Shown: positions 38,535-54,578, counted from the stretch's first letter. The stretch is DNA of 64,000 bases from Syntrophus sp. (in: bacteria) (GCA_025355725.1 JANXZC010000109.1:38340-102339), one strand, 5' to 3'. A program made the numbers and translations. The notes: generated by a model not told the origin, from the letters alone.

Positions 38535-39950
38535 TCAACATGCAAGCCGGTCATCGCCATTGCCTTCTCCTTTGTCCCGGGAAAGACTTTCTCCCATAAC
38601 CTCCCGCCAGTAAGGGTCGTTTCTCATCTGGGCAAGTTTTCTCTGTAACTGCCGCACCGTAATGCCCAGGATATCGGCGATTTGCCGCCGGTCGCCGCCG
38701 GTGTTCATGAGGACATAGGCGACCTGGGTCTCGTCGTTTTCCTTGAGGCTGCACAGGTGTCGGGCAAAAAGAGACTGCCTGGTGGGCTGTTTCCCCAAAT
38801 TGTGGGGCAGGATCACCCCTCCCTCGCCGAGGAGCACGGCATTCTCGACGACTTGGGCCAGTTCCCGGACATTACCCCGATATTCCCGACGTATAAGGAC
38901 GTCCATAGCCTCGGGACTGAAGCCGCTTATCTCTTTGCCATGCCGGGAATTTGCCTCCCGGAGAAAATGGGCAGACAGCAGGGCGATGTCTCCCTCCCTT
39001 TCCTGCAGCGGCGGGATATGGACATGGGCGGATTTCAGGCGATAGAGGAGATCCAGGCGAAAGCGGCCCTCCTGACAGGCCTTGTCCAGATCCATATTGG
39101 TCGCTGAAATAACGCGTACATCGACCTTCAAAGTCTTAGAACCGCCCAGGGGGGTAAAGGATTTTTCCTCGAGTGCCCGGAGGAGCTTTGCCTGAAGACC
39201 AAAAGGCAGCTCTCCGATCTCATCAAGGAACAATGTTCCGCCATTAGCCTGCTCAAAGAAACCACGATAACTTCCTTCGGCACCGGTGAAGGCGCCCCGG
39301 ACATGGCCGAAGAACTGGGTCTCGAACATGGTGGTCGGAATGGCGCAGACGTTGACGGCAATAAAGGGCCCTGCGGGAGCAGGACCGGTCTGATGAATCC
39401 CCCGGGCCATGAGTTCCTTCCCCGTCCCCGATTCACCGGTAATCAGGACGGGATTGCCGCTCCGGGCCATGACCTGGGCGTAAGCAAGGAGGGATTTCAT
39501 CAGCGGGCATTGAGTAATAATTCCGGCAAAGGCAGCGGGAATATCTCCACCCCCCTCACGACGGGCGGCGGATAATCCCTTGAGAAGACCTTTACGTTCG
39601 TAGGCCCGCTCAATGGTCAGGAACAGCAGTTCGTTGTCCACCGGTTTTACGAGATAATCGTAGGCCCCCAAGCGGATGGCCCGCACCGTTGCCGGGATAT
39701 CGTCCACGGCCGTCAGGATGATGAATTCCGTGTAGGGCTTGAAAGGTTTCGCCGCTTCCAGGACCTGCATGCCGTCCATTTCCGGCATCAGCAGATCGAG
39801 GAGCACGATATCATAATCCCGCTCCCGGATTTTCCGGATGGCCTCCTGACCGTTATCGCAGATATCCACATCACGAATGCCCCGCCATTTCAAAAGGCGT
39901 TGGACCGATGTGAGAGATATTTCCTCGTCATCCACGATCAGGATCTTCAT
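38535..39950 (-). CDS. Sigma54-dependent response regulator (NtrC family: REC-AAA+-Fis HTH)
   Basis: REC domain MKILIVDDEE...LLDLLMPEMDG. AAA+ domain with GESGTGKE and GAFTGA. C-terminal HTH DRRQIADILGITVRQLQRKL. Confidence 0.93.
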   Translation of the reverse strand: MKILIVDDEEISLTSVQRLLKWRGIRDVDICDNGQEAIRKIRERDYDIVLLDLLMPEMDGMQVLEAAKPFKPYTEFIILTAVDDIPATVRAIRLGAYDYLVKPVDNELLFLTIERAYERKGLLKGLSAARREGGGDIPAAFAGIITQCPLMKSLLAYAQVMARSGNPVLITGESGTGKELMARGIHQTGPAPAGPFIAVNVCAIPTTMFETQFFGHVRGAFTGAEGSYRGFFEQANGGTLFLDEIGELPFGLQAKLLRALEEKSFTPLGGSKTLKVDVRVISATNMDLDKACQEGRFRLDLLYRLKSAHVHIPPLQEREGDIALLSAHFLREANSRHGKEISGFSPEAMDVLIRREYRGNVRELAQVVENAVLLGEGGVILPHNLGKQPTRQSLFARHLCSLKENDETQVAYVLMNTGGDRRQIADILGITVRQLQRKLAQMRNDPYWREVMGESLSRDKGEGNGDDRLAC

Positions 39951-42085
39951 AGACGCTGTCTCCCCACTTCCTGAATCATCTTTTGCAATTTATCCATATC
40001 AAAAGGTTTTTGAATCGTAAAGGAAGGAATGAAGTTAGGGTCCGGATTTCCTTGCAGGCCATCCCCATCTCGTCCATACAAAACAGTATAAATCAGGGGG
40101 TAACGTTTTTTTATGCTACTCATGAGCTGGCAGCCGGTCAAACCTTTAAGATCCATAGCGCAGATCACCCAATCTACTTCCGGGTAATCTGTTAAATATT
40201 GGAGGATTCTTTCCCCATCCTCCGGTGACTCGGTCTGACAGGTCGCTGCTTCAAGAAAATACGCCTGAATGTCCTTGAGGAAGGTATCATCGGAATCGAC
40301 AAAGAGCAGGCGTGGATTCATCCGCGGCAAGCTACGTCCATCTATGGGCAGATAGATGGTAAAGCGGCTCCCCACCTTTGGCTGGGAGAGGACGCTGATC
40401 GTACCCCCATGTTCCTTGATAAGACCATAAGAAATGGACAGCCCCAGCCCCGTTCCTCCGGAATCCCGGCGGGTCGTGAAGAAAGGATCAAAAATATGGT
40501 CCATAGTCTCCCTGTCCATGCCCTTTCCGTTATCTTCTATTGCCACGACAACGGCGTCGAGACGGGAGAGATACCGGGCGGTAATGGTGATCTTCCCCTT
40601 TCGTCCCGGTGATATGGCCTGGTGGGCATTGATGAGGAGGTTCGTCAGCACTTGCTCCAATTTTTGAAAATGTCCCCGCACCGCGGGAAGACCGGGCTCG
40701 ATCTTCTGCTCGATAACGGATATGGTTTTGCGTATCTGGCCGCCGACAATAACCAGAACTCCCTGGATGATATCGGCCACCTGGATTGCTTTCTTCTCAG
40801 CCAGCTCGTCGCTGCGGGAAAACTCCTTCAGCCCCGTAATGACCCTGTTGATCCTGTGGGAGGCTATCTTGAATGCATGAATGATCTCCCGCATATTCTG
40901 AACGACCTCTGTCCGGGTAACCCCTCTTTGCTCACAGACTTTCGCAAAGGCATCGTGATCAACGAAAACTGGCTCCAGGGTATCCCAGATCTCCTCCAGG
41001 AGAGGGATGTTGTAGGATATAAAGCTGACGGGATTGTTGATCTCATGGGCAACGCCCGCTACCACTTCCCCGAGGGCTGTCAGTTTGTGGGTTTGAATGA
41101 TCTGCTGAAGACGCAACTCATTTTCCTGGCGAAGCCGCTTTTCATCCGTCACATCCTGCCAGATGCCGACGAAATAGGGGGCCGGGGCATCCGGCATCCG
41201 GACCAGGCGCCAGAAATCGGAGAACCATCTGTAGGTTTGATCGGAGGCGCGGAAACGATACTCGCAATGGTGTGTACCTTCGCCGCGGGATTCCTTCAGG
41301 GCCTTAATCACCCGGTGACGATCGTCGGGATGGATCTGGTTCTGCCAGAAAGAGGTACGGTCTGTAAAGTCCAAGGGACTATAGCCGGTGATTTCCTCCA
41401 CGGAGTGGCTCACAAAGGTCATTTCATATTTCCCTGCGGTGTTCCGGGTATAAGAAACGATGGGCAGAGACTCCAAGAGCAAAGACAATTGATCCGTCGT
41501 ACGCTGAAGGATTTCATTGGTTCTGGCTAACTCCGCGGTCCTTTCCCGGACCCGCATCTCAAGTTCTTCATGGGCCTTCAACAGGGCCGCTTCCGCTTCT
41601 TTTTTCTCGGTGATGTCCTCCAGGGTCTCTACAGCCCCCAGGACCGGCCCCTGGGGATCCCTGAGAAGAGCGGCGGTAAAACGTAACCAGCGACCAGTCT
41701 CGCCTAACTCGGGGAAGAAATCCGTTGCTTCATAGGCGTCCTCGATGAGGGGGGATTTAAGGTATTTTCTTCCATACCACTGGGGGATGTCCGCGACAGC
41801 GCCCTCCACCAGCAGATCGGCCAGGCATGGCCGTTGTCTGCTATAGAAGGCCCGCCACTGCTGGCTGGTGCCGATCACCTCTTCAGCACTGATCTTGCTG
41901 AGTTCTTCAAGGGCCCGGTTCCAGTAGATAAGCCGGTGGTCCCGGTCGATGACAAAGGCAGGGATTGGGGAGCCGCCGATGCATCCCATGAGCAGGTCGA
42001 GTTCTTCTCTGTCCAGGGGACCGGCAAAACGACGATGATTCGATGGGCTTCTTTTCATGGACAATATAAGCGGATCCTCTCTCAA
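39947..42085 (-). CDS. Hybrid sensor histidine kinase (Cys-PAS module, PAS, HisKA, HATPase_c, C-terminal receiver-like domain)
   Basis: H-box GVAHEINNPV plus N and G boxes (GTGLGLSISYG). The first PAS is the same module as in 43018..44406. The stop overlaps the regulator's start. An ATG at 42058 is an alternative start. Confidence 0.9.
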   Translation of the reverse strand: MREDPLILSMKRSPSNHRRFAGPLDREELDLLMGCIGGSPIPAFVIDRDHRLIYWNRALEELSKISAEEVIGTSQQWRAFYSRQRPCLADLLVEGAVADIPQWYGRKYLKSPLIEDAYEATDFFPELGETGRWLRFTAALLRDPQGPVLGAVETLEDITEKKEAEAALLKAHEELEMRVRERTAELARTNEILQRTTDQLSLLLESLPIVSYTRNTAGKYEMTFVSHSVEEITGYSPLDFTDRTSFWQNQIHPDDRHRVIKALKESRGEGTHHCEYRFRASDQTYRWFSDFWRLVRMPDAPAPYFVGIWQDVTDEKRLRQENELRLQQIIQTHKLTALGEVVAGVAHEINNPVSFISYNIPLLEEIWDTLEPVFVDHDAFAKVCEQRGVTRTEVVQNMREIIHAFKIASHRINRVITGLKEFSRSDELAEKKAIQVADIIQGVLVIVGGQIRKTISVIEQKIEPGLPAVRGHFQKLEQVLTNLLINAHQAISPGRKGKITITARYLSRLDAVVVAIEDNGKGMDRETMDHIFDPFFTTRRDSGGTGLGLSISYGLIKEHGGTISVLSQPKVGSRFTIYLPIDGRSLPRMNPRLLFVDSDDTFLKDIQAYFLEAATCQTESPEDGERILQYLTDYPEVDWVICAMDLKGLTGCQLMSSIKKRYPLIYTVLYGRDGDGLQGNPDPNFIPSFTIQKPFDMDKLQKMIQEVGRQRL

Positions 42086-42113
42086 CTCATTGTTAAAAGT
42101 CTACGCTTGAAAT

Positions 42114-42146
42114 TAACAAAAAGGAAGGGATCTTTCTGTCCCTTCC
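42114..42146 (-). terminator. Intrinsic terminator
   Basis: The minus-strand RNA reads GGAAGGGA-cagaaaga-UCCCUUCC followed by UUUUUG. It ends only about 28 nt before the kinase ORF. Confidence 0.6.
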
Positions 42147-42328
42147 CTTTATGGAGGTACGTAAATGGTTTGGAAAAATGGCCGTTTGTTCTTCTGCCTT
42201 TACCTCTCCCCCAAGGTATTGTTCATGATCTTTGAATTGTTTCGCAGCTACCACACAAAGGGGAAATAATCAATCGCAATTAAATCTGTGATTACAAAAT
42301 GTTAATGCAATCTTCTTTGTGCGAAATG

Positions 42329-42352
42329 GCCCACGGGCGCTTGCCCGTGGGC
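42329..42352 (-). terminator. 10-bp GC hairpin 45 nt after the 42397 gene's stop (weak U-tract)
   Basis: GCCCACGGGC-gctt-GCCCGTGGGC, a perfect stem. Confidence 0.4.
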
Positions 42353-42396
42353 TCCTACTTGAGGTAATTCAAATACGCCTTGCATTATCTTGGCAT

Positions 42397-42912
42397 TTAT
42401 TTCGGGGCACTTGCCCACAAAGATATTGCCAGGGGGCTTTTGATCTTTAATGCCTTGAATTTTTCCTCGATTTCTTTTCTGAGTAATTCATCATATTGCA
42501 GCACTATTACGTAGGTCGCATAATCGAACATCAGAATCGTCCGGTTGAGGCTTTCTGCGGCATGATGGTGTTCGACGGCGGTTGTAAATGTGCTCTGATA
42601 CTCGGCATACAACCACATGTGGCGTCTCATGAGGGTGATGGCGTAGATAGCCTGGGGCAGCGGTATGTGTGCCATGTAGCTTTCTTCTGCATATTTGGCA
42701 AAAAGCGTATGCGCCTCCTCGAAGGGTGAATCCGAGAGGAAGAGTTTTCCGAATTTGTTGTAAAAATTCAGGGCCTGCTGTTTTGCCTTGCTTTCCGGCA
42801 TCGTATGATAAAATGGTGTTTTGGGATTATTCTTTATATTGTTATACCACTGCTGGGCGATGGCTTCCGCATGTTTCTCCGTTAAGTCTATCAACTTTGT
42901 GGATGACTTCAT
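42397..42912 (-). CDS. Stand-alone sensor-globin/RsbR_N-like helical protein, paralog 1
   Basis: 171 aa sharing LIDL..HAE.IA.QW...NP.TP.Y, YAEE....IPL..AIYA...MRR..WLYAE.Q and RT.LMFDYA with 45590..46054 and 46115..46951. Confidence 0.6.
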   Translation of the reverse strand: MKSSTKLIDLTEKHAEAIAQQWYNNIKNNPKTPFYHTMPESKAKQQALNFYNKFGKLFLSDSPFEEAHTLFAKYAEESYMAHIPLPQAIYAITLMRRHMWLYAEYQSTFTTAVEHHHAAESLNRTILMFDYATYVIVLQYDELLRKEIEEKFKALKIKSPLAISLWASAPK

Positions 42913-43017
42913 GGTCTGACCTCCTGAATATCCGCTAAATAATTTGGCTTCTGGTCAACAGATCCTCTTCATTGCTGCACACGTAGTTTTCTTGAACCTA
43001 ATCTTTCTTCGGTGCAC

Positions 43018-44406
43018 TTATTTTTTAAGGGCAGCCTCCGCCAGCTTTTGCTCCGTAATATCTTCCAGGGTCTCAACGGCGCCAACGAGTTCTCCCTGGT
43101 TATCCCGGATTACGGCAGCGGTGAACCGAAGCCAGCGTCCCTTTTTCCCCAGCTCGGGGAAGAAATCCGTTGCTTCGAATGCCTCTTCATCGACATCGAA
43201 TTTTCGATATTTCCCCGTGTACCACTTGGAGATATTTTTAACCGCGCTGTCCACAAGCAGATCGGCCATACAGGGCCTCTCTTCTCCATAGAAGGCTTTC
43301 CAGTGATGATCGGTCCCGATCATATTTTCGGCCGGTATTTTGGTCAAATTTTCCAACGCCCGGTTCCAAAGAATGACCTTGTGGTCCTTCCCGATCACAA
43401 AAGCGGGGATGGAGAAGCCCTGGAAAATGCTGTTCAGTGTTTTTTCACTCTTGACCAGTCTTTGCTCTGCAATTTCGCGTTCCCTTTTGGTCTCCGTAAA
43501 ATCACCTAAGGTCTCGATAGCGCCAACTAAAACTCCCTGGGAGTTACGGATTGCCGCTGCGGTGAACCAGAGCCAGCGCCCGTTTACACCCAAGTCGGGG
43601 AAAAACCCCTCTGCTTTAAAAGTTTCATCGAGAAGTTTCGATTTAGATACGCCTCTGTACCATTCCGGTATTGTCTCAAGTGATTGATTTACGATCAGAT
43701 CAGCCATGCAAGGTCTTTCTTTAGCATAGAAGGCACGCCAGTGCTGACTTGTTCCGATCACCTCTTCCGATGGGATCTTGCTTAATTCTTCGAGAGCCCG
43801 ATTCCAGTGAATCACTTTGTGATCAATTCCGATTACGAATGTCGGAAACGGTGAACCCTCGATAATACTGAATAGCTCTTGGTCGCTTTCTCTTTTCGAC
43901 AGTTCAGCCGACTTGCGTTCCGAAATATCTTCCAGGGTCTCAACTGCTCCCACGAGTCGGCCTTTGGAATCCTTGATAGCTGCAGCCGTAAACCGAAGCC
44001 ATCGGCCACTTTCGCCGAGATCAGGGAAGAAATCGGTCGCTTCATAGGCTTCTTCCAACAGATCGGATTTGGAGTATTTTCCTTCATACCACTTTGGAAT
44101 CCGGTCCGAGATCCCATCAACGAGCAAATCCGCCATGCAGGGTCTTACCTCGGCATAAAAAGCCCTCCATTGCTCATTAGTGCCAACAACCTCACTCATC
44201 GGTATTTTACTCAGTTGTTCAAGGGCCTTATTCCAATGAAGAACCTTGTGGTCTTTCCCAATCACGAAAGCGGGAATGGAGAAACCATGGATTATGCTTT
44301 GCAGCAGATGTTCTGATTCCTGAGGACTGTCAGACGACTCCTTTTTTTTCTTCAGGTCTTTGCCCATCGTAGCCGGATCATTTTTTTTACTTACTTTTGC
44401 CTTCAT
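43018..44406 (-). CDS. Stand-alone protein of three tandem Cys-containing PAS-like modules (no output domain)
   Basis: Three ~130-aa repeats (approximately 44310..43912, 43881..43492 and 43434..43042). Each has IPAFVIGKDHKV..WN.ALE.L.KIP...V.GT...W.AFY...RPCMADL...GRWL.FTAA.I....G.LVGA.ETL.D. AGGGAGG SD. Confidence 0.8.
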   Translation of the reverse strand: MKAKVSKKNDPATMGKDLKKKKESSDSPQESEHLLQSIIHGFSIPAFVIGKDHKVLHWNKALEQLSKIPMSEVVGTNEQWRAFYAEVRPCMADLLVDGISDRIPKWYEGKYSKSDLLEEAYEATDFFPDLGESGRWLRFTAAAIKDSKGRLVGAVETLEDISERKSAELSKRESDQELFSIIEGSPFPTFVIGIDHKVIHWNRALEELSKIPSEEVIGTSQHWRAFYAKERPCMADLIVNQSLETIPEWYRGVSKSKLLDETFKAEGFFPDLGVNGRWLWFTAAAIRNSQGVLVGAIETLGDFTETKREREIAEQRLVKSEKTLNSIFQGFSIPAFVIGKDHKVILWNRALENLTKIPAENMIGTDHHWKAFYGEERPCMADLLVDSAVKNISKWYTGKYRKFDVDEEAFEATDFFPELGKKGRWLRFTAAVIRDNQGELVGAVETLEDITEQKLAEAALKK

Positions 44407-44428
44407 AAGTCACTCCTCCCTTTAGAGC

Positions 44429-44461
44429 CATGGCATATAATTTATCCTTAAATATGCCATG
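44429..44461. promoter_or_regulatory. Perfect 10-bp inverted repeat just upstream of the triple-PAS gene
   Basis: CATGGCATAT-N13-ATATGCCATG, 23-55 nt upstream of the ATG at 44406. Confidence 0.4.
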
Positions 44462-44609
44462 ATTTCGACGATCTTTGCCTCAACTGAATAATTGATTCTT
44501 AAACAATTCCAAACAGGAGCTCTTTTCACGTTTGTGTGGATCCTAATCTTTCTCATGTCCCGTTGGGCTTTAATCATCACCTCCCATGCATCGAGAAAAA
44601 GAAATTTAT

Positions 44610-45035
44610 TATGAAGATCCGATATCTGACGGCTTACGAACGCCGGATACTGTGACGATGAGTGCTATCAGTTCCGGCGGGGTGATATCGAAGGCCGGAC
44701 AGTATGCCTGCACCCGGTCGCCGGTGATTGCGTCCTCTGGAATTCGAGGACCTCCCTGGGATACCACTCATCTGTGGGGGATAGCGTGTCCCCGCAAGGT
44801 GCGACAAACCCGGTCGCCGTATTGCCTTTCGTAACTCTTTAATTTAGCAAGATACAGGCCATACCGAGCTGTGATAGCAATATCTCCTGCCCCCTGGGCC
44901 AGCATCTGCTCAATAGCCTTGATTACTTCCATGCGATAGGGGTATTTTCAAATCAACCACCCTTCAGCAAGCTTCGGGGAATATGACGCGGAGAGATTGC
45001 AATCTGGTCATGTCCCTCGATTTTGTTAAGATTTC
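44610..45035 (-). pseudogene. Internally deleted remnant of an mtnA-like paralog
   Basis: 44641..44830 aligns by eye at about 80% with the 3' end of 20689..21684 (20721..20920). 44848..45030 aligns with its 5' region (about 21490..21680). The central ~560 bp is missing and the frame is broken. Confidence 0.6.
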
Positions 45036-45517
45036 TGGTTACGCCCCTTCCGGGATGCTGAAACGCCAGGCGCAGAACCATTCTCGGGGATGGGCGTCGG
45101 GGGGTATCCTCTGCATTCGTAGCGGAAGCGAGAGTCAATGGCCTTCCCAACGCTTATAATGCAGCATAGTCTTTCCTGCCTTGCAAACGGGGATTCATGC
45201 CCATATCCTGCTTTGCAAGAAACGCGACTTCCAGGTCACATGGGGGCGACATTTTGGTCGCAGCATGCAAGTACACAACTTTTAAGTTGTTTTTTCTTTT
45301 TATTGACGCCTGTTTTGTTCTTGGCCCCACAAATGACGACCTTTTGTTCATCAGCCCGATGAACTGTATCGCTAACTCGTAAAAAAAATCGTTGTTTAAT
45401 CTCTCCGGGCTATATTTCCTGAAGCTTGCTTCGTTCCTTACGGTCTTGGCTGCCTCGCAGCCTGCTGCGTCGTGGTTCATTCAGGCATGAAACTATTGTC
45501 TCTGAGGAAATCTTTTT

Positions 45518-45533
45518 TGGTACAACCCTTGCT
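45518..45533 (+). promoter_or_regulatory. Sigma54 (-24/-12) promoter candidate
   Basis: TGGTACAACCCTTGCT has exact GG-N10-GC geometry, about 57 nt upstream of the ATG at 45590. Confidence 0.6.
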
Positions 45534-45589: not shown

Positions 45590-46054
45590 ATGATCGCATC
45601 GATGAAACTGATTGATCTGGTAGATAATCACGCGGAAAGAATCGCCGAACAGTGGGCTAAAAACGTGGTCAAAAACCCCATGACGCCTTATTATAAGAAA
45701 CTGGAGGCGGACAGACTCATACCCCAGGCGACAAGGTTGTATCACAAGTTCCGAAGCTTGTTTATGGAACCGAAACGTGCGGAAGCCTCCGACGGATATT
45801 TCTCCAAGTACGCTGAGGAACGATACAGAGAAGGCGTCCCTCTGCACGAGGCGATCTATGCTCTCATCCTGATGAGGCGTCAGATCTGGCTGTATGCAGA
45901 GTTTCAGGCCACTTTCTCAACAGCCGTAGAAAAACAGCAGGCCATTGATAGCGTCACCAGGACCATGCTCATGTTCGATTATGCCATGTACTTCATTACA
46001 AAAAAATATCGCGAACTGATGAAGCTGGAATGGTTTGAGGCGCCCAACACCTGA
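45590..46054 (+). CDS. Stand-alone sensor-globin/RsbR_N-like helical protein, paralog 2
   Basis: 154 aa with an AGGAGG SD. Same conserved blocks as paralogs 1 and 3. Confidence 0.6.
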   Translation: MIASMKLIDLVDNHAERIAEQWAKNVVKNPMTPYYKKLEADRLIPQATRLYHKFRSLFMEPKRAEASDGYFSKYAEERYREGVPLHEAIYALILMRRQIWLYAEFQATFSTAVEKQQAIDSVTRTMLMFDYAMYFITKKYRELMKLEWFEAPNT

Positions 46055-46114: not shown

Positions 46115-48369
<2,255 letters not shown>

Positions 48370-48440
48370 ACTTTTGAGAACGAAATCTGTTTCCTGAAGA
48401 AAAAGGTAATTTTTGAACATCAGGATGAGGACATAAACAC

Positions 48441-48827
48441 ATGAACATGAAAGTCCTGCTCCCCGCTGAGATATTTTTGACCGCAGAGGTAACCAAAGTG
48501 GTGGCCGAAGCGGAAAACGGGTTTTTCTGCCTGATGCCCCAGCACGTTGATTTCACGGCGGCCCTCGTCCCCGGGGTATTTTCCTATACCACCCAGGCAG
48601 GGGAGGATAACTACCTGGCCGTTGATGTCGGCACCATTATCAAGAGGGGGGCCGATATCCTGGTATCGACCCGTAACGCCTTCCGTGGATCCGAACTCGG
48701 TCATTTGAAAGAGGTCGTCGTCCAGCAGTTCCGGGAGATAGACGAGCGCGAAAAGAAGGCCCGTACTGCCGCATCCAGACTGGAAGTGGACCTCCTGCGC
48801 CGCTTCATGGAGTTGAGACATGAGTGA
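48441..48827 (+). CDS. atpC: N-type F-ATPase epsilon subunit
   Basis: 128 aa in the position after atpD. Has an epsilon-like N-terminal beta-sandwich pattern. Confidence 0.8.
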   Translation: MNMKVLLPAEIFLTAEVTKVVAEAENGFFCLMPQHVDFTAALVPGVFSYTTQAGEDNYLAVDVGTIIKRGADILVSTRNAFRGSELGHLKEVVVQQFREIDEREKKARTAASRLEVDLLRRFMELRHE

Positions 48828-49149
48828 AGAACATCTGACCCCGAAAGAAAGGCTCCGCAAGCAGGCCGAAGATTTCACGAAAAAGGTCGGCGTCAAGGAG
48901 GCAAGGAAAATCAAGGGAAAATCCCAGAAAGACGAGGGCATCTGGTTCGGCCTGGGCGTCTTCGGCATCGTGGGGTGGTCGGTCGTCATCCCCACCCTGA
49001 TCGGAACGGCCATCGGGGTCTGGATCGACGGCGCCTGGCCAAGCCGGTTTTCCTGGGCGCTGATGATGATGATCCTGGGGGTAACTTTGGGATGCATCAA
49101 CGCCTGGTACTGGGTAAAAAAGGCCCGGGAAAACATCATCAAGGACTGA
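48820..49149 (+). CDS. atpQ: N-ATPase accessory membrane protein AtpQ (AtpI/AtpZ-like)
   Basis: 109 aa with two TM segments (GLGVFGIVGWSVVIPTLIGTAIGVWIDG). Its position in the operon fits AtpQ. Confidence 0.7.
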   Translation: MSEEHLTPKERLRKQAEDFTKKVGVKEARKIKGKSQKDEGIWFGLGVFGIVGWSVVIPTLIGTAIGVWIDGAWPSRFSWALMMMILGVTLGCINAWYWVKKARENIIKD

Positions 49150-49221
49150 GAGAACGATTACAGCAGCGTCACTCGTCGGTAAATTTTCATCGACGGAACG
49201 ACTGAATGAAAGGATTAATCC

Positions 49222-49530
49222 ATGGTTTCCGCCACAACACTGCTCGTCCCATTTATCCTCGGGAGCCTGATCGGCCTGCTCTACTTCTCGGGACTCTGGC
49301 AGACTGTGCAGCGGCTTCCCGACGCACAGAGCCCCATTCGGATCCTTTTGTACAGTTATATCGGGCGGATAACCCTGACGCTGGGAGGGTTTTACGTCAT
49401 CATGGACGGCGCCTGGGAACGCCTGGCGGCAGCCATGATGGGATTTTTGATCCTCCGGGCCTTACTGGTCCGGCGTTTCGGGCGGATTCCCGGCCCTTCT
49501 CCTAAAGGAGCGGTATTATGGAAGTCGTAG
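49222..49530 (+). CDS. atpR: N-ATPase accessory membrane protein AtpR
   Basis: 102 aa with GLLYFSGLWQTVQRL and Arg-containing TM helices. It is positioned between atpQ and atpB. Confidence 0.65.
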   Translation: MVSATTLLVPFILGSLIGLLYFSGLWQTVQRLPDAQSPIRILLYSYIGRITLTLGGFYVIMDGAWERLAAAMMGFLILRALLVRRFGRIPGPSPKGAVLWKS

Positions 49531-50246
49531 CCATTAACCAGATCAGTCCCGACCAGGTCATCCTCTTCTCGTGGTGGTTCGTCACTATCAGCGCCACCCT
49601 GCTTTACACTTGGTTGGTCATGGGGGTCCTGGTCATCGGATCCATACTTATTACGGGAAATCTGTCATCAGACCCGATCATGACCCGGTGGCAGAGTGTG
49701 CTGGAAGTCCTCGTCGAAACGATCCGCTCGGAGATCGGGGATGTTGTCAAGGATGGTGTGGACACCTATTTTCCCTTTATCGGCACCCTTTTTCTGTTCA
49801 TCCTGTTCTCCAACCTTTTCACCTTCATTCCGGGATACGTCGCCCCGACATCATCCCTCACGACCACGTCAGCCCTCGCAATCATGGTCTTTTTTGCCGT
49901 CCCGATTTATGGAATCTCCAAACAGGGAATCCTTGAATACCTGAAGGAATATTTTCGCCCGACCTTTATCTTCTTCCCCTTTCACGTCATGGGCGAATTT
50001 TCCCGGACCCTGGCCCTTGCCGTCCGGCTTTTCGGTAATCTCATGAGCCACGAGAAGGTTATTGCCATCCTGCTTGCCGTCACGCCCCTGCTCTTCCCGG
50101 TAGTCATGCAGGTCCTCGGCCTCCTCATCGGCATCATCCAGGCCTATATTTTTGCGGTACTGACCATAGTTTACATTGCGTCTGCCACGCAGTCGCATGA
50201 AGAAGCGGAACATAAAACCAAGGAACCTAATTCAACAAACCGTTAA
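49518..50246 (+). CDS. atpB: F-ATPase a subunit
   Basis: Polytopic, with LALAVRLFGNLMSHE (the conserved stator Arg region). Confidence 0.88.
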   Translation: MEVVAINQISPDQVILFSWWFVTISATLLYTWLVMGVLVIGSILITGNLSSDPIMTRWQSVLEVLVETIRSEIGDVVKDGVDTYFPFIGTLFLFILFSNLFTFIPGYVAPTSSLTTTSALAIMVFFAVPIYGISKQGILEYLKEYFRPTFIFFPFHVMGEFSRTLALAVRLFGNLMSHEKVIAILLAVTPLLFPVVMQVLGLLIGIIQAYIFAVLTIVYIASATQSHEEAEHKTKEPNSTNR

Positions 50247-50276
50247 AAACATAAAAAGAAAAGGAGGACACATCAA

Positions 50277-50555
50277 ATGGACAGCGTGAGCATTGTAGCG
50301 ATGGCATCTATTATTACGGCGGGTATCTGTATGGGGATCGGCGCCATCGGACCCGGCCTTGGACAGGGCCGGGCGGTACAGGGGGCGTTGACTTCGATCG
50401 CCCAGCAGCCTGATGAGCGGAACTCTCTGACGAGGACCCTTTTTGTGGGTCTCGCCATGATTGAATCCATCGCCATCTACTGCTTCGTTATCTCCATGAT
50501 CCTGGTGTTCGCCAATCCATTCTGGGCTTACGTCATCAAGAAAGCGGGGGGATAA
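50277..50555 (+). CDS. atpE: F-ATPase c subunit with a Na+-type ligand set
   Basis: Helical hairpin with GxGxGxG (GAIGPGLGQG) and Q30, E63, S64, Y68. These correspond to Q32/E65/S66/Y70 of the I. tartaricus Na+ c-ring. Confidence 0.9.
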   Translation: MDSVSIVAMASIITAGICMGIGAIGPGLGQGRAVQGALTSIAQQPDERNSLTRTLFVGLAMIESIAIYCFVISMILVFANPFWAYVIKKAGG

Positions 50556-50558
50556 TCC

Positions 50559-51332
50559 ATGCATATCGACTGGTTTGTCTTTTTCTCCCAGATCGTCAAT
50601 TTCCTGATCCTCCTGTTTCTCCTGAAGAAATTCCTCTACGGGCGGATCATCGGGGCCATAGACGCCCGGAAAGCGAAGATCGGCGCCCTCTTTGCGGAGG
50701 CCGAGCAATCCCGCCAGGATGCCCGGACGGCGGCAGAAGACTGCGAGAGGAAGCGCCAGGACCTGGAGGAACGCTATGAGCAATCGCTCAATGAGGCCCG
50801 CCGGGAGGCCGAGACCTACCGGGAACGCCTGATGGAGAAGGCCCGCGAGGAGGTAGATTACCTCAAGGTGCGATGGACGGAGGCCCTGAGGGCAGAACGG
50901 AATAACTTCCTCCACGAGCTCCGGCAGCTTGCGGGACGTCAGATCTACGCGGCGACGCGGCGAGTCCTCAAGGATCTGGCCGATCTAAATCTCGAGGAGC
51001 GAATCGTAGAGGTACTCTTGGCCCGCATCGCTTCCATGGATGAAAACGAGCGGAACAAATTCCGGGGACCCGCCCGTGAGGGAGGGACGATAACCGTCAC
51101 CTGCGCCTTTGATATTCCCACGGCGGCGCAGGCGAGACTTAATGACACCCTGCACCGCTACCTGTCAGGGGACATGGACGTGACCTATGTGCGATCGGAT
51201 GACATCCTTTCCGGTTGCGAATTACGGTCGGACGGACACAAGATATCATGGAGCATGAAGGATTACCTCGACACCATCGAGGAGCGATTCTACTCCGCCC
51301 TTTATGAGGAAGCGCAGGAACAGCGGACATAA
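50559..51332 (+). CDS. atpF: F-ATPase b subunit, long form with a delta-like C-terminus
   Basis: N-terminal TM helix plus a long charged helix. 257 aa, with a C-terminal ...[29 protein letters not shown] resembling the OSCP/delta end. There is no separate atpH. Confidence 0.75.
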
Positions 51333-51345
51333 GGAGATAATAACC

Positions 51346-52905
51346 ATGAAGGATATTGTATCGGAGAAGGAGGAGTTGAAGGTGTTTCTGGACGGCGCCT
51401 TCCGAACCATGGATAACGTCCTTTCCCAGCATGAAGCGGAACTGCGGGATCGTGAGGTAGGCACCGTCAATTACGTCGGTTACGGGATCGTCCGGGTCAG
51501 CGGCCTGCCGAACATCCGGGCCGACGAAGTCGTCCTCTTTCCCGGTAATCTTCAGGGACTGGTCTTCAATATCGATCCGGAGGAAATCGGGGTTATTCTC
51601 CTGGGGCCCAGCGCACATCTGGGGGCCGGGGATGAGGTGAGGCGCACCGACAGAATCCTCGATGTTCCCGTCGGGGAAGCGCTGATCGGCCGGGTGGTTG
51701 ACGCCTTGGGGCGCCCCTTGGACGACCAGGGGGAAATCCGGTCGGTGAAGCGGTTTGCAGTGGAACGGGAGGCCCCGCCGGTAATGGCCCGGGATCCCGT
51801 CACGGTTCCCCTCCAGACGGGCATCAAGGTAATCGACGCCCTTTTTCCCATCGGGCAGGGACAGCGGGAACTTATCGTCGGCGACCGCCAGACGGGGAAA
51901 ACGGCCATCGCCCTCGACACCATTATCAACCAGGCCGACAAGAACGTCCTCTGTATCTATTGCACCGTCGGGAAAAAGGCTTCCGATGTAGCCAAACTCA
52001 TCGCCGACCTGAAACAGTACAAAACCATGAGTTATGTAACCGTCGTGGTCGCCACCGGCGACGAGCCCCCGGGGCTCCAGTTCATTGCCCCCTACGCCGC
52101 CACCTCCATGGCTGAATATTTCATGTCCACCGGGCGTGACGTCCTTATCATCTATGATGATCTCACTTATCATGCCCGGGCCTACCGGGAGCTTTCCCTG
52201 CTGCTCCGGCGCCCGCCGGGCCGTGAGGCATTTCCCGGGGATATTTTCTATATCCATTCCCGGCTCCTGGAACGGTCGACCCATCTCCGGAAGGAACACG
52301 GCGGCGGCTCCCTGACATCCCTGCCCATCGTGGAAACGGAGGCTCAGGATATTTCCGGTTACATCCCGACCAATCTGATCTCCATCACCGACGGGCAGCT
52401 CTATCTATCACCAAGACTTTTCCAGAAGGGCATCCTACCCGCTGTGGATGTCGGCAAATCCGTTTCCCGCGTGGGCGGCAAGGCCCAGCTTCCGGCCTAC
52501 CGGGCCGTGGCGGGGGATGTCCGGATCTCATATTCCCAGTTTGAAGAACTGGAAACCTTTTCCCGCTTCGGCACCCGTCTGGACGACGCGACCCGGAAGG
52601 TCCTCGATCGGGGCTGGCGGGTCCGGGAGATCCTGAAGCAGCCCCAGTATCAGCCCATCCCCGTAGCTGAGCAGGTCGCGGCGCTGCTGGCCGTCACCTC
52701 GGGAAGTTATGACAGCGTCGCCGTTGATAAAATCCGGGACGCTGAAGCAGCCCTTCGTAAGACCATGGTTGAAAAACACGGCGATTTGAACGCCCGGATC
52801 AGTGCGGGTGAAAAACTCGGGTCTGCAGACCGGGACATTCTCGCCCGCGCGGCTACGGAAACGGCGTTATCTTATGGAAAGGAGCCGGAAAGTGCTGACC
52901 GCTGA
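51346..52905 (+). CDS. atpA: N-type F-ATPase alpha subunit
   Basis: P-loop GDRQTGKTA. Start is the ATG at 51346, after AAGGAG. Confidence 0.93.
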
Positions 52906-53773
52906 AGCCCTGAAGCGACAAATCCAGAGCGCCCAGGATCTCCTCGGCGTCGTGAAGACGATGAAGGCCCTGGCCGCCGTGAGTATCCGACAGTATCAGC
53001 GGGCCGTCGAGTCCTTGAGCGAGTACAACCGGACCGTCGAAATGGGCCTGCAGATCGTTCTGAAAAAGAGCCAGGGAACCTTTGCACCCTCGGGCGGGCG
53101 GATGACCCGTCTCGGGGCCATTATTTTCGGAACGGATCAGGGTCTCTGCGGCCAGTTCAACAACATCGTCGTCCATCACGCCCTTGAAGAAATGGACAAG
53201 ACAGGTGTAAAGAAAGAAGACCGGGTCGTGATTGCCATTGGGCTCAGGACCGCCGATATCCTCGAGGACTCGGGACAGAAGATTTTTGAAACCCTCGCCA
53301 CGCCTGGGTCCACGTCGGGAATCACTCCCATGGTGCAGGATATCACCCTGCTCCTTGAGAACTGGCGGTTCAAGAGTCAGGTGGAGCATATGCATCTTTA
53401 TTACAATGAATACATCTCCGGGGCCACTTACCGGCCCCGCCTGCTGAAACTGCTTCCCGTGGACAGGGCCTGGCTGCTGAATCTCCAGAGACAGAAATGG
53501 GAGTCCCGGACTCTCCCCCTGTTCACCATGGAATGGGAACATATCTTCCGGTCCATGATCCGGGAATACCTATTCGTTTCCATCTACAAAGCCTTCGCCA
53601 ATTCGCTGGCCAGCGAAAACGCCAGCCGGCGGGCGGCCATGCAAAATGCGGAGAAGAATATCGAAGAACGTCTTGAGGAGCTCCATGTCCATTTTCACCG
53701 CCAGCGACAGATGACGATCACGGAAGAGCTCCTGGATATTGTCGCTGGTTTTGAAGCCATGGGGAAAAACTGA
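52892..53773 (+). CDS. atpG: N-type F-ATPase gamma subunit
   Basis: ...[16 protein letters not shown]... and C-terminal [14 protein letters not shown] start after AAGGAG. The ATG at 52874 is an alternative. Confidence 0.85.
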
Positions 53774-53792
53774 TGAAAGGGGGTCACTGATT

Positions 53793-54578
53793 ATGGGAAT
53801 GGAAAAGACACTTTGCATTATCTGCGCCTGGCGGGAGCACTGTCAGAAAAGGTTCTCCATCACACAGCACGGAGGAGTTAACATTCATTGCCCCGATTTT
53901 ACAAGGGATTACGCCATCAAGGACTCGGATGTTGATTACAGTCTTGTTGATAAACAGTTGGAGAAATGGCGCAAAGAAGGGGCGATCAAGCCACGGCCGA
54001 CAATTACCGTTTCCCGTGACCCGGGGGCCGGGGGCAGCGAGGTTTCCCGAAAACTTGCCAAGGATCTCAAAATGGATCTAATGGGAGGGCAGATCATCTC
54101 CCGGGTGGCGGAAAGCGCCAACATGAGTGAAAAGGTCGTCAAGACCCTTGACGAAAAACACGTCAGCACCCTGGATAGTTGGATCAATTCGCTCTTTACC
54201 TCCCGCCATCTCTGGCCCGACGTTTATCTGCAACATCTGACCAAGGTGATTGGCGCCATCGGTGAGCACGGCAACGCTATCATCGTCGGGCGGGGGGCGC
54301 AGTTTATCCTGCCGCCGGAGCGGACTTTCCGTCTTCGCTTTGTCGCCCCCCTGGAACAGCGGATACAAAAGATCGCAAAAGATCGGAGCTGTTCTGCGGA
54401 AGAGGCGGAAAGCTACATCATCAAGACCGAAAATGACCGGGCTGCCTTTATCAAAAAGGCCTTTCATGAGGATATTGCGAGCCCCCTACATTACGATCTG
54501 GTGCTTAACACGGCGGGCATGACCATCGATGAAGCAGTGGAAACAATCAAAAACGCCTTCAAGGCGAGAAAATACTGA
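53793..54578 (+). CDS. Cytidylate-kinase-like family protein with an N-terminal Cys/His-rich extension
   Basis: ITVSRDPGAGGSEVSRKLA P-loop-like motif (Cytidylate_kin2 type). N-terminal CIICAWREHCQKRFSITQHGGVNIHC. Starts 20 nt after atpG. Confidence 0.7.
   Translation: MGMEKTLCIICAWREHCQKRFSITQHGGVNIHCPDFTRDYAIKDSDVDYSLVDKQLEKWRKEGAIKPRPTITVSRDPGAGGSEVSRKLAKDLKMDLMGGQIISRVAESANMSEKVVKTLDEKHVSTLDSWINSLFTSRHLWPDVYLQHLTKVIGAIGEHGNAIIVGRGAQFILPPERTFRLRFVAPLEQRIQKIAKDRSCSAEEAESYIIKTENDRAAFIKKAFHEDIASPLHYDLVLNTAGMTIDEAVETIKNAFKARKY

What the first reader, a model, noticed from the sequence alone, without database searches (positions are those of the whole stretch)
41576..44406. Four copies of one Cys-containing PAS-like module: three in a stand-alone protein, one at the N-terminus of the adjacent hybrid kinase
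The 462-aa product of 43018..44406 consists of three tandem ~130-aa repeats and nothing else. The same module opens the histidine kinase (approximately 41576..41971).

All four copies keep these blocks:
- (I/F)P.FVI..DH..I.WN.ALE.LSKI
- W.AFY...RPC(M/L)ADL
- DFFP(D/E)LG..GRWL.FTAA
- LVGA.ETL.D

The invariant Cys in RPCxADL is a candidate cofactor-attachment or redox-sensing residue.

A sensor-only protein that mimics the input domain of its neighbouring kinase could act as a decoy, a co-sensor or a hetero-oligomerisation partner. That is inference.

The repeats are diverged at the DNA level, so this is not an assembly duplication.
Basis: partly seen in the sequence, partly recalled or inferred. 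Interest (0 to 1): 0.6.

Follow-up and report, generated by a model that had tools for sequence, protein, structure and literature searches.

The report
Output-less triple-PAS sensor beside N-ATPase genes
A syntrophic bacterium encodes a protein made only of three copies of the sensor domain that also heads the neighbouring kinase, always paired with a small globin-like sensor protein and usually next to a second, probably sodium-pumping ATPase, so it is most likely an accessory sensor for that pump's control switch.

Summary
The gene at 43018-44406 (-) encodes 462 aa: three tandem ~140-aa PAS domains and no output domain. A fourth copy opens the hybrid histidine kinase. Copies are 56-68% identical in protein and 60-67% in DNA.

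- The Cys of RPCxADL is invariant in close relatives (370 of 371 modules). Within the same PAS clade, with the same signature residues, about half the modules carry V/T/I/L/S instead (108 Cys vs 102 non-Cys, at least 15 switches on the tree). More distant family members carry I/L/M. An obligatory cofactor anchor is therefore unlikely.
- The conserved neighbour is not the kinase (7 of 31 loci). It is a 171-aa globin-like HisK_N-type gene about 110 nt downstream (27 of 28 evaluable loci).
- The pair is linked to an N-ATPase operon. That operon's regulators carry the same Cys-PAS module: kinase plus NtrC-type activator here, 2-3xPAS-LuxR proteins in other genomes.

Best reading: a trans-acting co-sensor or modulator in the N-ATPase control circuit. 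No binding test was possible.

The scan had already noted the N-ATPase/sigma-54/globin-like link here and on other DNA (e1-5079424, e1-2155098). The triple-PAS cassette and the LuxR wiring are additions.

The parts
43018..44406 (-). P0001, 462 aa. Lys-rich N-terminal tail followed by three tandem PAS modules; no output domain.
43903..44316 (-). Module R1 (aa 31-168). Its Cys90 codon is at 44137-44139.
   Evidence: AF2 model pLDDT 89.9.
43483..43896 (-). Module R2 (aa 171-308). Its Cys233 codon is at 43708-43710.
43021..43452 (-). Module R3 (aa 319-462). Its Cys379 codon is at 43270-43272.
42397..42912 (-). P0003, 171 aa, all-helical globin-like (HisK_N-type) sensor-domain protein. It is the conserved partner gene, starting 105 nt after the P0001 stop.
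   Evidence: Synteny.
42329..42352 (-). 10-bp G+C hairpin after the P0003 stop.
   Evidence: sequence.: -31.3 kcal/mol for the 91-nt stretch, z -3.9.
42119..42150 (-). Intrinsic-terminator-like hairpin with a T tract, lying between P0003 and the kinase start.
39947..42085 (-). Hybrid histidine kinase: Cys-PAS module, PAS_3, HisKA, HATPase_c and a weak receiver domain. The likely start is the ATG at 42057.
41576..42013 (-). The fourth copy of the module, at the kinase N-terminus. Its Cys codon is at 41825-41827.
38535..39950 (-). NtrC-type response regulator (receiver, sigma-54 AAA+ and HTH_8 domains). It overlaps the kinase stop codon.
45518..45532 (+). Sigma-54-promoter-like TGGTAC-N5-TTGC, 58 nt upstream of the first gene of the N-ATPase operon.
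Evidence: one mismatch to the pattern, but the window-wide count of such matches is at chance level.
45590..46054 (+). Globin-like paralogue of P0003 (50% identity). First gene of the N-ATPase operon.
46115..46951 (+). 278-aa protein whose N-terminal part is a further paralogue of P0003 (45-56% identity in relatives' loci).
46951..54578 (+). N-ATPase genes in the order beta, epsilon, AtpQ, AtpR, a, (c), b, alpha, gamma, followed by a cytidylate-kinase-like gene.

Best explanation
P0001 is a cytoplasmic sensor protein with no output domain, built from three anciently diverged copies of one PAS subtype.

In Syntrophales this subtype is the input module of the regulators that sit on the N-ATPase gene cluster:
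- in this window, a hybrid kinase plus an NtrC-type sigma-54 activator;
- in other genomes, one-component regulators with 2-3 such modules fused to a LuxR-type HTH.

P0001 is transcribed with P0003. P0003 is a small globin-like (HisK_N-type) sensor domain and a paralogue of the two globin-like genes that head the N-ATPase operon.

I infer that the pair acts in trans on that control circuit. It would perceive the same signal as the regulators' PAS modules and modulate them, either by PAS-PAS association or by competing for the signal. This would tune expression of the probable Na+-extruding ATPase.

The motif Cys is most likely a buried residue at the N-cap of helix F-alpha, lining the core or pocket. 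It is probably not a covalent cofactor anchor.

**Shown:** domain anatomy, module relationships, gene linkage, fold predictions.

**Inferred:** action in trans, the partner proteins, the nature of the signal, and the role of the Cys.
For: **Anatomy**
- Three PAS domains and no output domain.
- The single-module model has pLDDT 89.9 and a PAS topology.
- Fold searches return PAS domains only: Foldseek TM 0.5-0.65, VIA best Z 11.2 with 102 of 138 residues aligned.

**Positional orthology**
- R1, R2, R3 and the kinase modules each form their own clade across genomes (support 97*, 99*, 93 and 85).
- The array is therefore old and each position is maintained.

**Gene pair**
- A P0003 orthologue (60-97% identity) starts 107-167 nt downstream in 27 of 28 loci that have at least 600 nt of downstream flank.
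- Contigs from RNA libraries of one study (4 runs, 95-99% identity) cover 42363-44767. Four listed contigs, one per run, bridge the P0001/P0003 junction.
- A hairpin and a terminator-like site separate the pair from the kinase.

**Link to the N-ATPase**
- N-ATPase genes lie in 13 of 31 orthologue loci. They are directly upstream on the same strand in 11 and divergent in 2 (L006, L032), as in this window.
- L073 is collinear: kinase, regulator, globin-like gene, N-ATPase, triple-PAS, globin-like gene. L074 has the kinase and regulator divergent from the same string.
- In 5 of 5 genomes whose cassette lies elsewhere, an orthologue of the 278-aa head gene is present.
- In three genomes a 3x, 3x or 2x Cys-PAS + GerE regulator sits directly upstream of the N-ATPase head genes.
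- The window operon has the N-ATPase gene order, with AtpQ and AtpR.

**P0003**
- Its predicted fold (pLDDT 87.5) best matches stand-alone non-haem globin sensor domains, then globin-coupled sensor domains and the RsbR N-domain: 3pmd TM 0.63/0.69, E 3e-3, and 3pmc.
- It gives a weak Pfam HisK_N hit.

**Precedent**
- Such stand-alone sensor domains act on a kinase that carries the same sensor domain (passages of PMC5862856).

**Cys**
Against: - No interaction was tested; the complex predictor was unavailable.
- The N-ATPase is within 6 kb in only 13 of 31 loci.
- In 8 loci (L013-17, L020, L022, L024) the cassette lies near a different sigma-54 regulator. In L014, the one locus of these that was scanned, a single-domain receiver and a Cache-domain protein lie there too. 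The pair may therefore serve more than one circuit.
- The RNA evidence is contigs from RNA libraries of one study and at most two samples. DNA carry-over is not excluded, and relatives at 95-99% identity are not this strain.
- The Foldseek E-values for P0003 are weak (best 3e-3), and its Pfam score (19.8) is below the cut-off (24.4).
- The strict conservation of Cys across orthologues and across the LuxR and GGDEF fusions at 55-63% identity could still reflect a real chemical role.
Confidence: 0.55

Rival explanations
1. Pure decoy for the adjacent kinase. P0001 sequesters the ligand or forms dead-end heterodimers with the kinase's PAS module, damping its activity.
For: - The modules are 56-62% identical to the kinase's module.
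- There is no output domain.
- Precedent exists for signal titration by stand-alone sensor domains (passages of PMC5862856).
- Where the cassette is the tail of the N-ATPase operon, induction would raise decoy levels, giving negative feedback.
Against: - A kinase orthologue lies in only 7 of 31 loci.
- Several genomes use LuxR-type regulators at the operon instead.
- Each of R1-R3 has been kept as a distinct lineage, which a simple ligand sponge would not need.
- The invariant partner is P0003, not the kinase.
Confidence: 0.2
2. P0001 and P0003 regulate the N-ATPase enzyme itself after translation, for example by gating ATP hydrolysis or assembly according to redox or energy state. In this reading they do not act on transcriptional regulators.
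For: - The cassette lies directly after the last operon gene on the same strand in 11 loci. In L026, L028 and L030 the stop of that gene lies about 50-70 nt before the triple-PAS start.
- P0003 paralogues, one of them in a 278-aa protein, head the operon.
Against: - The same PAS module is fused to kinase, GGDEF, LuxR and HD-GYP outputs. Of 60 proteins scanned: 35 kinase, 8 GGDEF, 2 GerE, 1 HD_5 and 14 with no recognised output. This marks it as a generic signalling input.
- 18 of 31 loci have no N-ATPase gene within the flank.
Confidence: 0.12
3. The Cys is the functional centre. Each module would carry a thiol-linked or thiolate-ligated cofactor, or sense redox or thiol stress. P0001 would then be a three-site redox sensor.
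For: - Cys in 370 of 371 modules of close relatives.
- 56 of 90 orthologues contain no Cys other than the three motif Cys.
- The Cys sits at the N-cap of F-alpha, just after the E-alpha/F-alpha connector. From recall, the photoactive yellow protein chromophore Cys lies in that connector.
- Cys-type modules occur in diverse, mostly anaerobic lineages, including a Methanomicrobiales archaeon.
Against: - 102 of 210 close-clade modules with the same signature residues have V, T, I, L or S, with at least 15 switches on the tree.
- More distant family members have I, L or M.
- There is no LOV-type Cys motif and no His on F-alpha (both motifs recalled).
- Fold searches point to no cofactor-specific PAS class.
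Confidence: 0.15

Closest known systems
Stand-alone non-haem globin sensor domains pXO1-118 and pXO2-61 (SkiA), which act on the sporulation kinase BA2291
   Same: - These are proteins with no output domain that copy the sensor domain of a kinase in the same cell. They are proposed to titrate its signal (passages of PMC5862856).
- P0003's predicted fold matches these structures best: 3pmd and 3pmc.
- P0001 has the same logic with a PAS domain.
   Different: - In this window the copied kinase domain is PAS, not globin-like, and it is present three times.
- The globin-like P0003 copies small proteins at the head of an ATPase operon, not a kinase domain.
- No phenotype or binding is known.
- The Foldseek E-value is weak (3e-3) and sequence identity is 14%.
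MopJ, the single-domain PAS protein of Caulobacter
   Same: It is a PAS protein without an output domain that acts in trans on a two-component pathway. Only the search listing and the start of the abstract of PMC4432633 were seen.
   Different: - MopJ has one PAS domain and belongs to a different PAS subtype.
- Its context is the cell cycle.
- It is not a copy of the input domain of a neighbouring kinase.
N-ATPase operon atpDCQRBEFAG (Dibrova et al. 2010, PMC2881411; abstract read)
   Same: The neighbouring operon has this gene order, including AtpQ (PF09527) and AtpR (PF12966).
   Different: The abstract names no regulators. In this window the operon carries globin-like head genes and a sigma-54-like site, and PAS-based regulators and the triple-PAS cassette lie next to it.
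Generic cytoplasmic PAS sensor domains (Pfam PAS_4, PAS_9, PAS)
   Same: Same fold and HMM matches.
   Different: - The module is about 140 aa. Between F-alpha and G-beta it has an extra helix (70-76) and a short strand (81-83).
- It has its own signature: DH..WN, W.AFY...RP.(L/M)ADL, FFP..G..G.WL.FTA.
- No solved structure is close by sequence. The best profile hit is a C-terminal PAS domain of plant phytochrome B, at E 1e-13.

Membership tests
PAS domain (Pfam PAS clan) | Match to PAS profile HMMs above the curated cut-off | tested here: met
   PAS_4 85.1 bits (cut-off 23.1), PAS_9 72.8 and PAS 69.6, each with three stretches.
PAS domain (Pfam PAS clan) | Five-stranded antiparallel sheet flanked by helices | tested here: met
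   The AF2 model (pLDDT 89.9) has strands 16-20, 25-28, 90-97, 105-115 and 121-130, plus helices. All top fold-search hits are PAS domains.
LOV (flavin-Cys adduct PAS) | Reactive Cys within the conserved E-alpha motif (GXNCRFLQ; motif recalled, not from a call) | tested here: not met
   The module sequences contain no such motif. The Cys follows E-alpha and lies at the N-cap of F-alpha.
Haem PAS of the FixL/DosP type | Proximal His on helix F-alpha (recalled) | tested here: not met
   Both helices between E-alpha and G-beta, 61-66 (MADLLV) and 70-76 (SDRIPKW), lack His in R1. DosP and FixL appear only as generic fold hits at Z 8.7-9.4.
Photoactive yellow protein type | Cys thioester to a chromophore in the connector before F-alpha (recalled) | tested here: inconclusive
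   The Cys is in a similar topological position. A PYP domain is only a mid-list fold hit: 1mzu, Z 8.7. No residue-level alignment or coordinates were available.
HisK_N / non-haem globin sensor domain (applies to P0003) | Match to PF09385 above the cut-off | tested here: inconclusive
   - P0003 scores 19.8 bits against a cut-off of 24.4.
- The paralogue at 45590-46054 scores 23.8 bits.
- 7 of the 120 listed homologues carry a precomputed PF09385 hit.
HisK_N / non-haem globin sensor domain (applies to P0003) | Globin-like helical fold | tested here: met
   The model (pLDDT 87.5) is all-helical. Top Foldseek rows are 3pmd, 3pmc, globin-coupled sensor domains and the RsbR N-domain, at TM 0.55-0.76 with E-values of 3e-3 or weaker.
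Stand-alone sensor-domain modulators of kinases (SkiA/pXO1-118 type) | [quoted passage not shown] | tested here: met
   R1-R3 are 56-62% identical to the kinase's N-terminal module.
Stand-alone sensor-domain modulators of kinases (SkiA/pXO1-118 type) | A kinase-dependent effect or physical interaction | not testable with these tools
There are no genetics for this uncultured organism.
N-ATPase operon (the neighbour) | Gene order atpDCQRBEFAG with AtpQ and AtpR | tested here: met
   In order, the ORFs match ATP-synt_ab, ATP-synt_DE_N, ATPase_gene1, AtpR, ATP-synt_A, ATP-synt_B, ATP-synt_ab and ATP-synt. The small c-subunit ORF was not scanned.

The most novel reading that the evidence does not exclude
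The two-gene cassette is a dedicated 'sensor-domain sponge'. In many genomes it is transcribed as the tail of the N-ATPase operon.

- Its three Cys-PAS modules would buffer the signal seen by the operon's PAS regulators, or heterodimerise with them.
- Its globin-like protein would do the same for the globin-like proteins heading the operon.

Together they would give built-in negative feedback or adaptation for a sodium pump. The Cys would provide thiol- or redox-dependent tuning in this subclade.
Probability: 0.15. Interest if true: 0.7.

Novelty: new variant of a known kind. Interest (0 to 1): 0.45.

Why it matters
The abstract of the paper that defined N-ATPases names no regulators (PMC2881411). 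My one literature search combining 'N-ATPase', 'sigma-54' and 'PAS domain' listed nothing relevant among the 15 of 45 papers shown.

This locus, with its relatives, identifies one PAS subtype as the common input of two different regulator types on that operon. It also identifies a conserved pair of sensor proteins with no output domain. These are concrete proteins to purify for ligand identification.

It is also a natural case for testing how trans-encoded copies of a sensor domain shape a two-component response.

On its own, a multi-PAS protein without an output domain is not unusual.

Tried and rejected
- **Sigma-54-like site upstream of P0001 (44847-44861, -).** Rejected. It lies inside a remnant of an MtnA/eIF-2B-like gene that is intact in L006, and it is missing in L032. 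Matches with up to 2 mismatches are at chance level in the window: 54 found against 52.7 expected.
- **51-codon ORF in the conserved leader (44422-44577, -).** It is not kept as an ORF in L001, L006 or L032.
- **P0001 as a recent truncation of the 3xPAS-LuxR regulator.** The LuxR modules form their own clades and are not nested with R1, R2 or R3.
- **Sequence searches of solved structures.** P0001 alone gave 0 hits and the P0003 profile gave 0 hits at E up to 10.
- **RNA over the kinase.** None of the four RNA runs gave cover on 41500-42318, the kinase 5' end. Contig data cannot show absence, so nothing is concluded from this.
- **Whether the Cys faces the PAS pocket.** Not done. The structure tool returns no coordinates, and the fold searches give no residue-level alignment.
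- **Word look-up of earlier findings.** Rejected for a malformed word and not repeated.

Full report
**1. The observation**

The minus-strand ORF 43018-44406 encodes 462 aa. Pfam finds three PAS stretches well above the gathering scores and nothing else of significance. NCBIfam gives only the generic 'PAS domain S-box'.

The next large ORF downstream on the same strand (39947-42085) is a hybrid kinase: PAS, PAS_3, HisKA, HATPase_c and a weak receiver domain. It is followed, with overlapping stop and start, by an NtrC-type regulator carrying receiver, sigma-54 AAA+ and HTH_8 domains.

I cut out the three modules of P0001 and the N-terminal module of the kinase and aligned them.
- Protein identity is 56-68% and codon-aligned DNA identity 60-67%.
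- 56 columns are invariant.
- RPC[ML]ADL is present in all four copies.

An HMM built from the four copies was run over all six-frame ORFs of the window's genome (3.15 Mb, 183 contigs).
- The four copies score 253-274 bits.
- Two modules in a 690-aa ORF on another contig score about 150 bits.
- Ten further full-length modules score 54-82 bits.
- None of these twelve paralogues has Cys at the motif. They read RRP[ILVQT]L[IA]DL.

**2. The module**

A profile search of 1.84 billion cluster representatives gave 30,053 proteins at E up to 1e-3 and 1,916 at E up to 1e-30. Many have several modules per protein. This is a large PAS subfamily that tends to occur in arrays.

An AlphaFold2 model of R1, built on a 44-module alignment, has pLDDT 89.9 and a PAS topology. 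Between F-alpha and G-beta it has an extra helix (70-76) and a short strand (81-83). The Cys (module position 60) sits at the N-cap of helix 61-66, just after an eight-residue connector.

Fold and sequence comparisons return only generic PAS domains.
- Foldseek against the PDB: TM 0.5-0.65.
- The Foldseek-independent search: best Z 11.2, with 93-117 of 138 residues aligned among the rows at Z 8 or more.
- By sequence, the nearest solved relative is a C-terminal PAS domain of plant phytochrome B, at E 1e-13.

No cofactor-specific PAS class stands out. There is no LOV-type Cys motif and no His on either helix between E-alpha and G-beta; both of those motifs are recalled, not taken from a call.

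**3. The cysteine**

In the 120 best relatives of P0001, the column is Cys in 370 of 371 modules. These relatives comprise:
- 93 stand-alone proteins of about 464 aa;
- 21 proteins of about 632 aa, listed with a GerE/LuxR domain;
- proteins of 700-805 aa with four modules, listed with a GGDEF domain.

In genome loci L001-L034 it is Cys in 100 of 100 modules. It is also Cys in 8 of 18 modules from more distant loci, including MAGs labelled Acidimicrobiales, Acidobacteria, Nitrospirota, Desulfatiglandales, Desulfobacteraceae and Methanomicrobiales.

Among the modules of the 150 best cluster representatives the picture changes.

| Module score | Cys | Other residues |
|---|---|---|
| 200 bits or more | 68 of 74 | |
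| 150-200 bits | 38 of 113 | V, T, I, S, L, A |
| 50-100 bits | 0 of 105 | mostly I, L, M |

I then restricted to the 210 modules at least 40% identical to R1.
- 108 have Cys and 102 do not (V 50, T 20, I 14, L 8, S 7, other 3).
- Both groups keep the clade's signature residues at the same frequencies. For example, H22 is 0.97 vs 0.98, W105 0.96 vs 0.93 and F96 0.91 vs 0.91.
- On a FastTree built without that column, the Cys state needs at least 15 changes.

This is the behaviour of a buried hydrophobic position, not of the invariant centre of a chemistry. It lowers the covalent-cofactor idea but does not remove it. 56 of 90 orthologues have no Cys other than the three motif Cys. I could not check whether the Cys faces the cavity, because no coordinates are returned.

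**4. Evolution of the array**

In a maximum-likelihood tree of 80 modules, R1, R2, R3 and the kinase modules each form one clade across genomes (support 97*, 99*, 93 and 85). R1 and R3 are sisters (94) (a larger tree agrees).
- The triplication therefore predates the divergence of these Syntrophales genomes, and each position has been kept.
- The modules of the LuxR-fused proteins form three clades of their own. P0001 is thus not a recent truncation of that regulator.

**5. The neighbourhood changes the story**

*The partner gene.* Between P0001 and the kinase lies P0003 (42397-42912, 171 aa).
- A P0003 orthologue (60-97% identity) starts 107-167 nt after the triple-PAS gene in 27 of 28 orthologue loci that have at least 600 nt of downstream flank.
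- The exception, L032, has a two-module protein abutting the kinase.
- An orthologue of the kinase is in only 7 of 31 loci: convergent in five and on the same strand in two.
- In the window, a 10-bp G+C hairpin and a terminator-like hairpin with a T tract lie between P0003 and the kinase. These look like two transcription units.

*RNA evidence.* Contigs from four metatranscriptome runs of one study (95-99% identity) cover 42363-44767. Four listed contigs, one per run, bridge the P0001/P0003 junction. This is consistent with expression of the pair in close relatives, with the caveats the tool states.

*What P0003 is.*
- Its family is narrow: 270 hits, nearly all unnamed or 'hypothetical'.
- It gives a sub-threshold Pfam HisK_N hit.
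- It folds with pLDDT 87.5 into an all-helical domain.
- The best Foldseek matches are the stand-alone non-haem globin sensor domains 3pmd and 3pmc, then globin-coupled sensor domains and the RsbR N-domain. TM is 0.55-0.76, but E-values are 3e-3 or weaker.
- It is 50% identical to the first gene of the divergent operon at 45590-46054.
- It is related to the N-terminal part of the second gene, 46115-46951.
- The family occurs in 42 of 61 sampled genomes of the order, usually in several copies, and more distantly inside ORFs of 330-640 aa.

*The divergent operon is an N-ATPase.* Its genes run beta, epsilon, AtpQ (PF09527), AtpR (PF12966), a, b, alpha, gamma, then a cytidylate-kinase-like gene. 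This matches the atpDCQRBEFAG operon defined by Dibrova et al. (PMC2881411, abstract read). A sigma-54-like TGGTAC-N5-TTGC lies 58 nt upstream of its first gene. Two earlier notes of this scan describe the same operon type with a sigma-54 promoter and globin-like head genes, one on this window and one on another genome.

*How the cassette is linked to that operon.*
- N-ATPase genes are in 13 of 31 orthologue loci: directly upstream on the same strand in 11, and divergent in 2 (L006, L032) as in the window.
- In L026, L028 and L030 the stop of the last operon gene lies about 50-70 nt before the triple-PAS start.
- In L073 everything is collinear: kinase with one module, regulator, globin-like gene, N-ATPase, triple-PAS, globin-like gene.
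- In L074 the kinase and regulator are divergent from the same string.
- In L036 the kinase and regulator head the operon.
- In three genomes whose operon lacks this kinase, a protein with three, three or two Cys-PAS modules plus a GerE (LuxR) HTH lies directly upstream of the operon's head genes.
- In 5 of 5 genomes whose cassette is elsewhere, the operon's 278-aa head gene has a full-length orthologue.
- In eight loci the cassette lies instead 4-5 kb from another sigma-54 regulator. In L014, the one locus of these that was scanned, a single-domain receiver and a Cache-domain protein lie between them.

**6. Reading**

The Cys-PAS module is the sensory input used by two differently wired regulators of the N-ATPase cluster in this order. 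P0001/P0003 is a conserved two-gene set of sensor domains with no output, each a paralogue of a sensor domain used elsewhere in the cluster.

With no output domain, both proteins must act through other proteins. The most economical mechanism is association with, or competition with, the module-bearing regulators. This is the logic proposed for stand-alone globin-type sensor domains and the kinase that shares their domain (passages of PMC5862856). It is also the logic of single-domain PAS proteins acting in trans, such as MopJ (PMC4432633, listing only).

That step is inference. The one tool that could have tested binding was unavailable.

More widely, the module feeds many outputs. Of 60 Cys-module proteins scanned, 35 are kinases, 8 have GGDEF, 2 have GerE, 1 has HD_5 and 14 have no recognised output, some of which may be fragments.

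**7. Verdict**

The PAS assignment and the relation to the kinase are right. The Cys-cofactor idea is weakened. The decoy idea remains an untested possibility that now has a better-defined target, the N-ATPase control circuit.

As a protein class this is a new variant of known kinds: multi-PAS sensors, and trans-acting stand-alone sensor domains. The linkage to N-ATPase regulation is the useful part, and the scan had partly noted it before.

Noticed in passing
window 44600-45100 (-): A remnant of an MtnA/eIF-2B-like gene lies between the triple-PAS gene and the N-ATPase operon. The family name comes from reading the sequence and from recall; no family search was run. The corresponding stretch is about 560 bases longer in L006, shorter in L001 and absent in L032.
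   Followed up: partly
window 44407-44600 (-): A leader of about 190 nt upstream of P0001 is conserved in L001, L006 and L032. It includes a 10-bp hairpin (about 44432-44461) just before the ribosome-binding site (fold z -2.45). Other orthologue loci show different sequences that also form hairpins at the same place. A 51-codon ORF in the leader is not conserved.
   Followed up: partly
window 44317-44406 (-) and the C-terminus of P0001: P0001 has a Lys-rich N-terminal tail of about 30 aa. The orthologue consensus also shows Lys-rich N- and C-termini. The function is unknown; possibilities are binding to membranes or to acidic surfaces.
   Followed up: no
L032:5998-9108: In one relative, a two-module stand-alone protein (322-aa frame) is followed within about 15 nt by the kinase, with no globin-like gene between them. 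This looks like a deletion or rearrangement of the cassette.
   Followed up: no
G000 contig C180:28509-30578 (own genome, outside the window): A 690-aa ORF carries two modules of the same PAS clade (about 45% identity). They have Leu and Val in place of the motif Cys.
   Followed up: partly
L018:1422-4626: In a very close relative (kinase 98% identical), about 3.2 kb separate the globin-like gene from the kinase, against about 340 nt in this window. The inserted stretch was not examined.
   Followed up: no
L070:7244-8761 and L071:494-2074: A Peptidase_C92 (YaeF/YiiX-like) gene lies directly upstream of the 3xPAS-LuxR regulator in two genomes.
   Followed up: no
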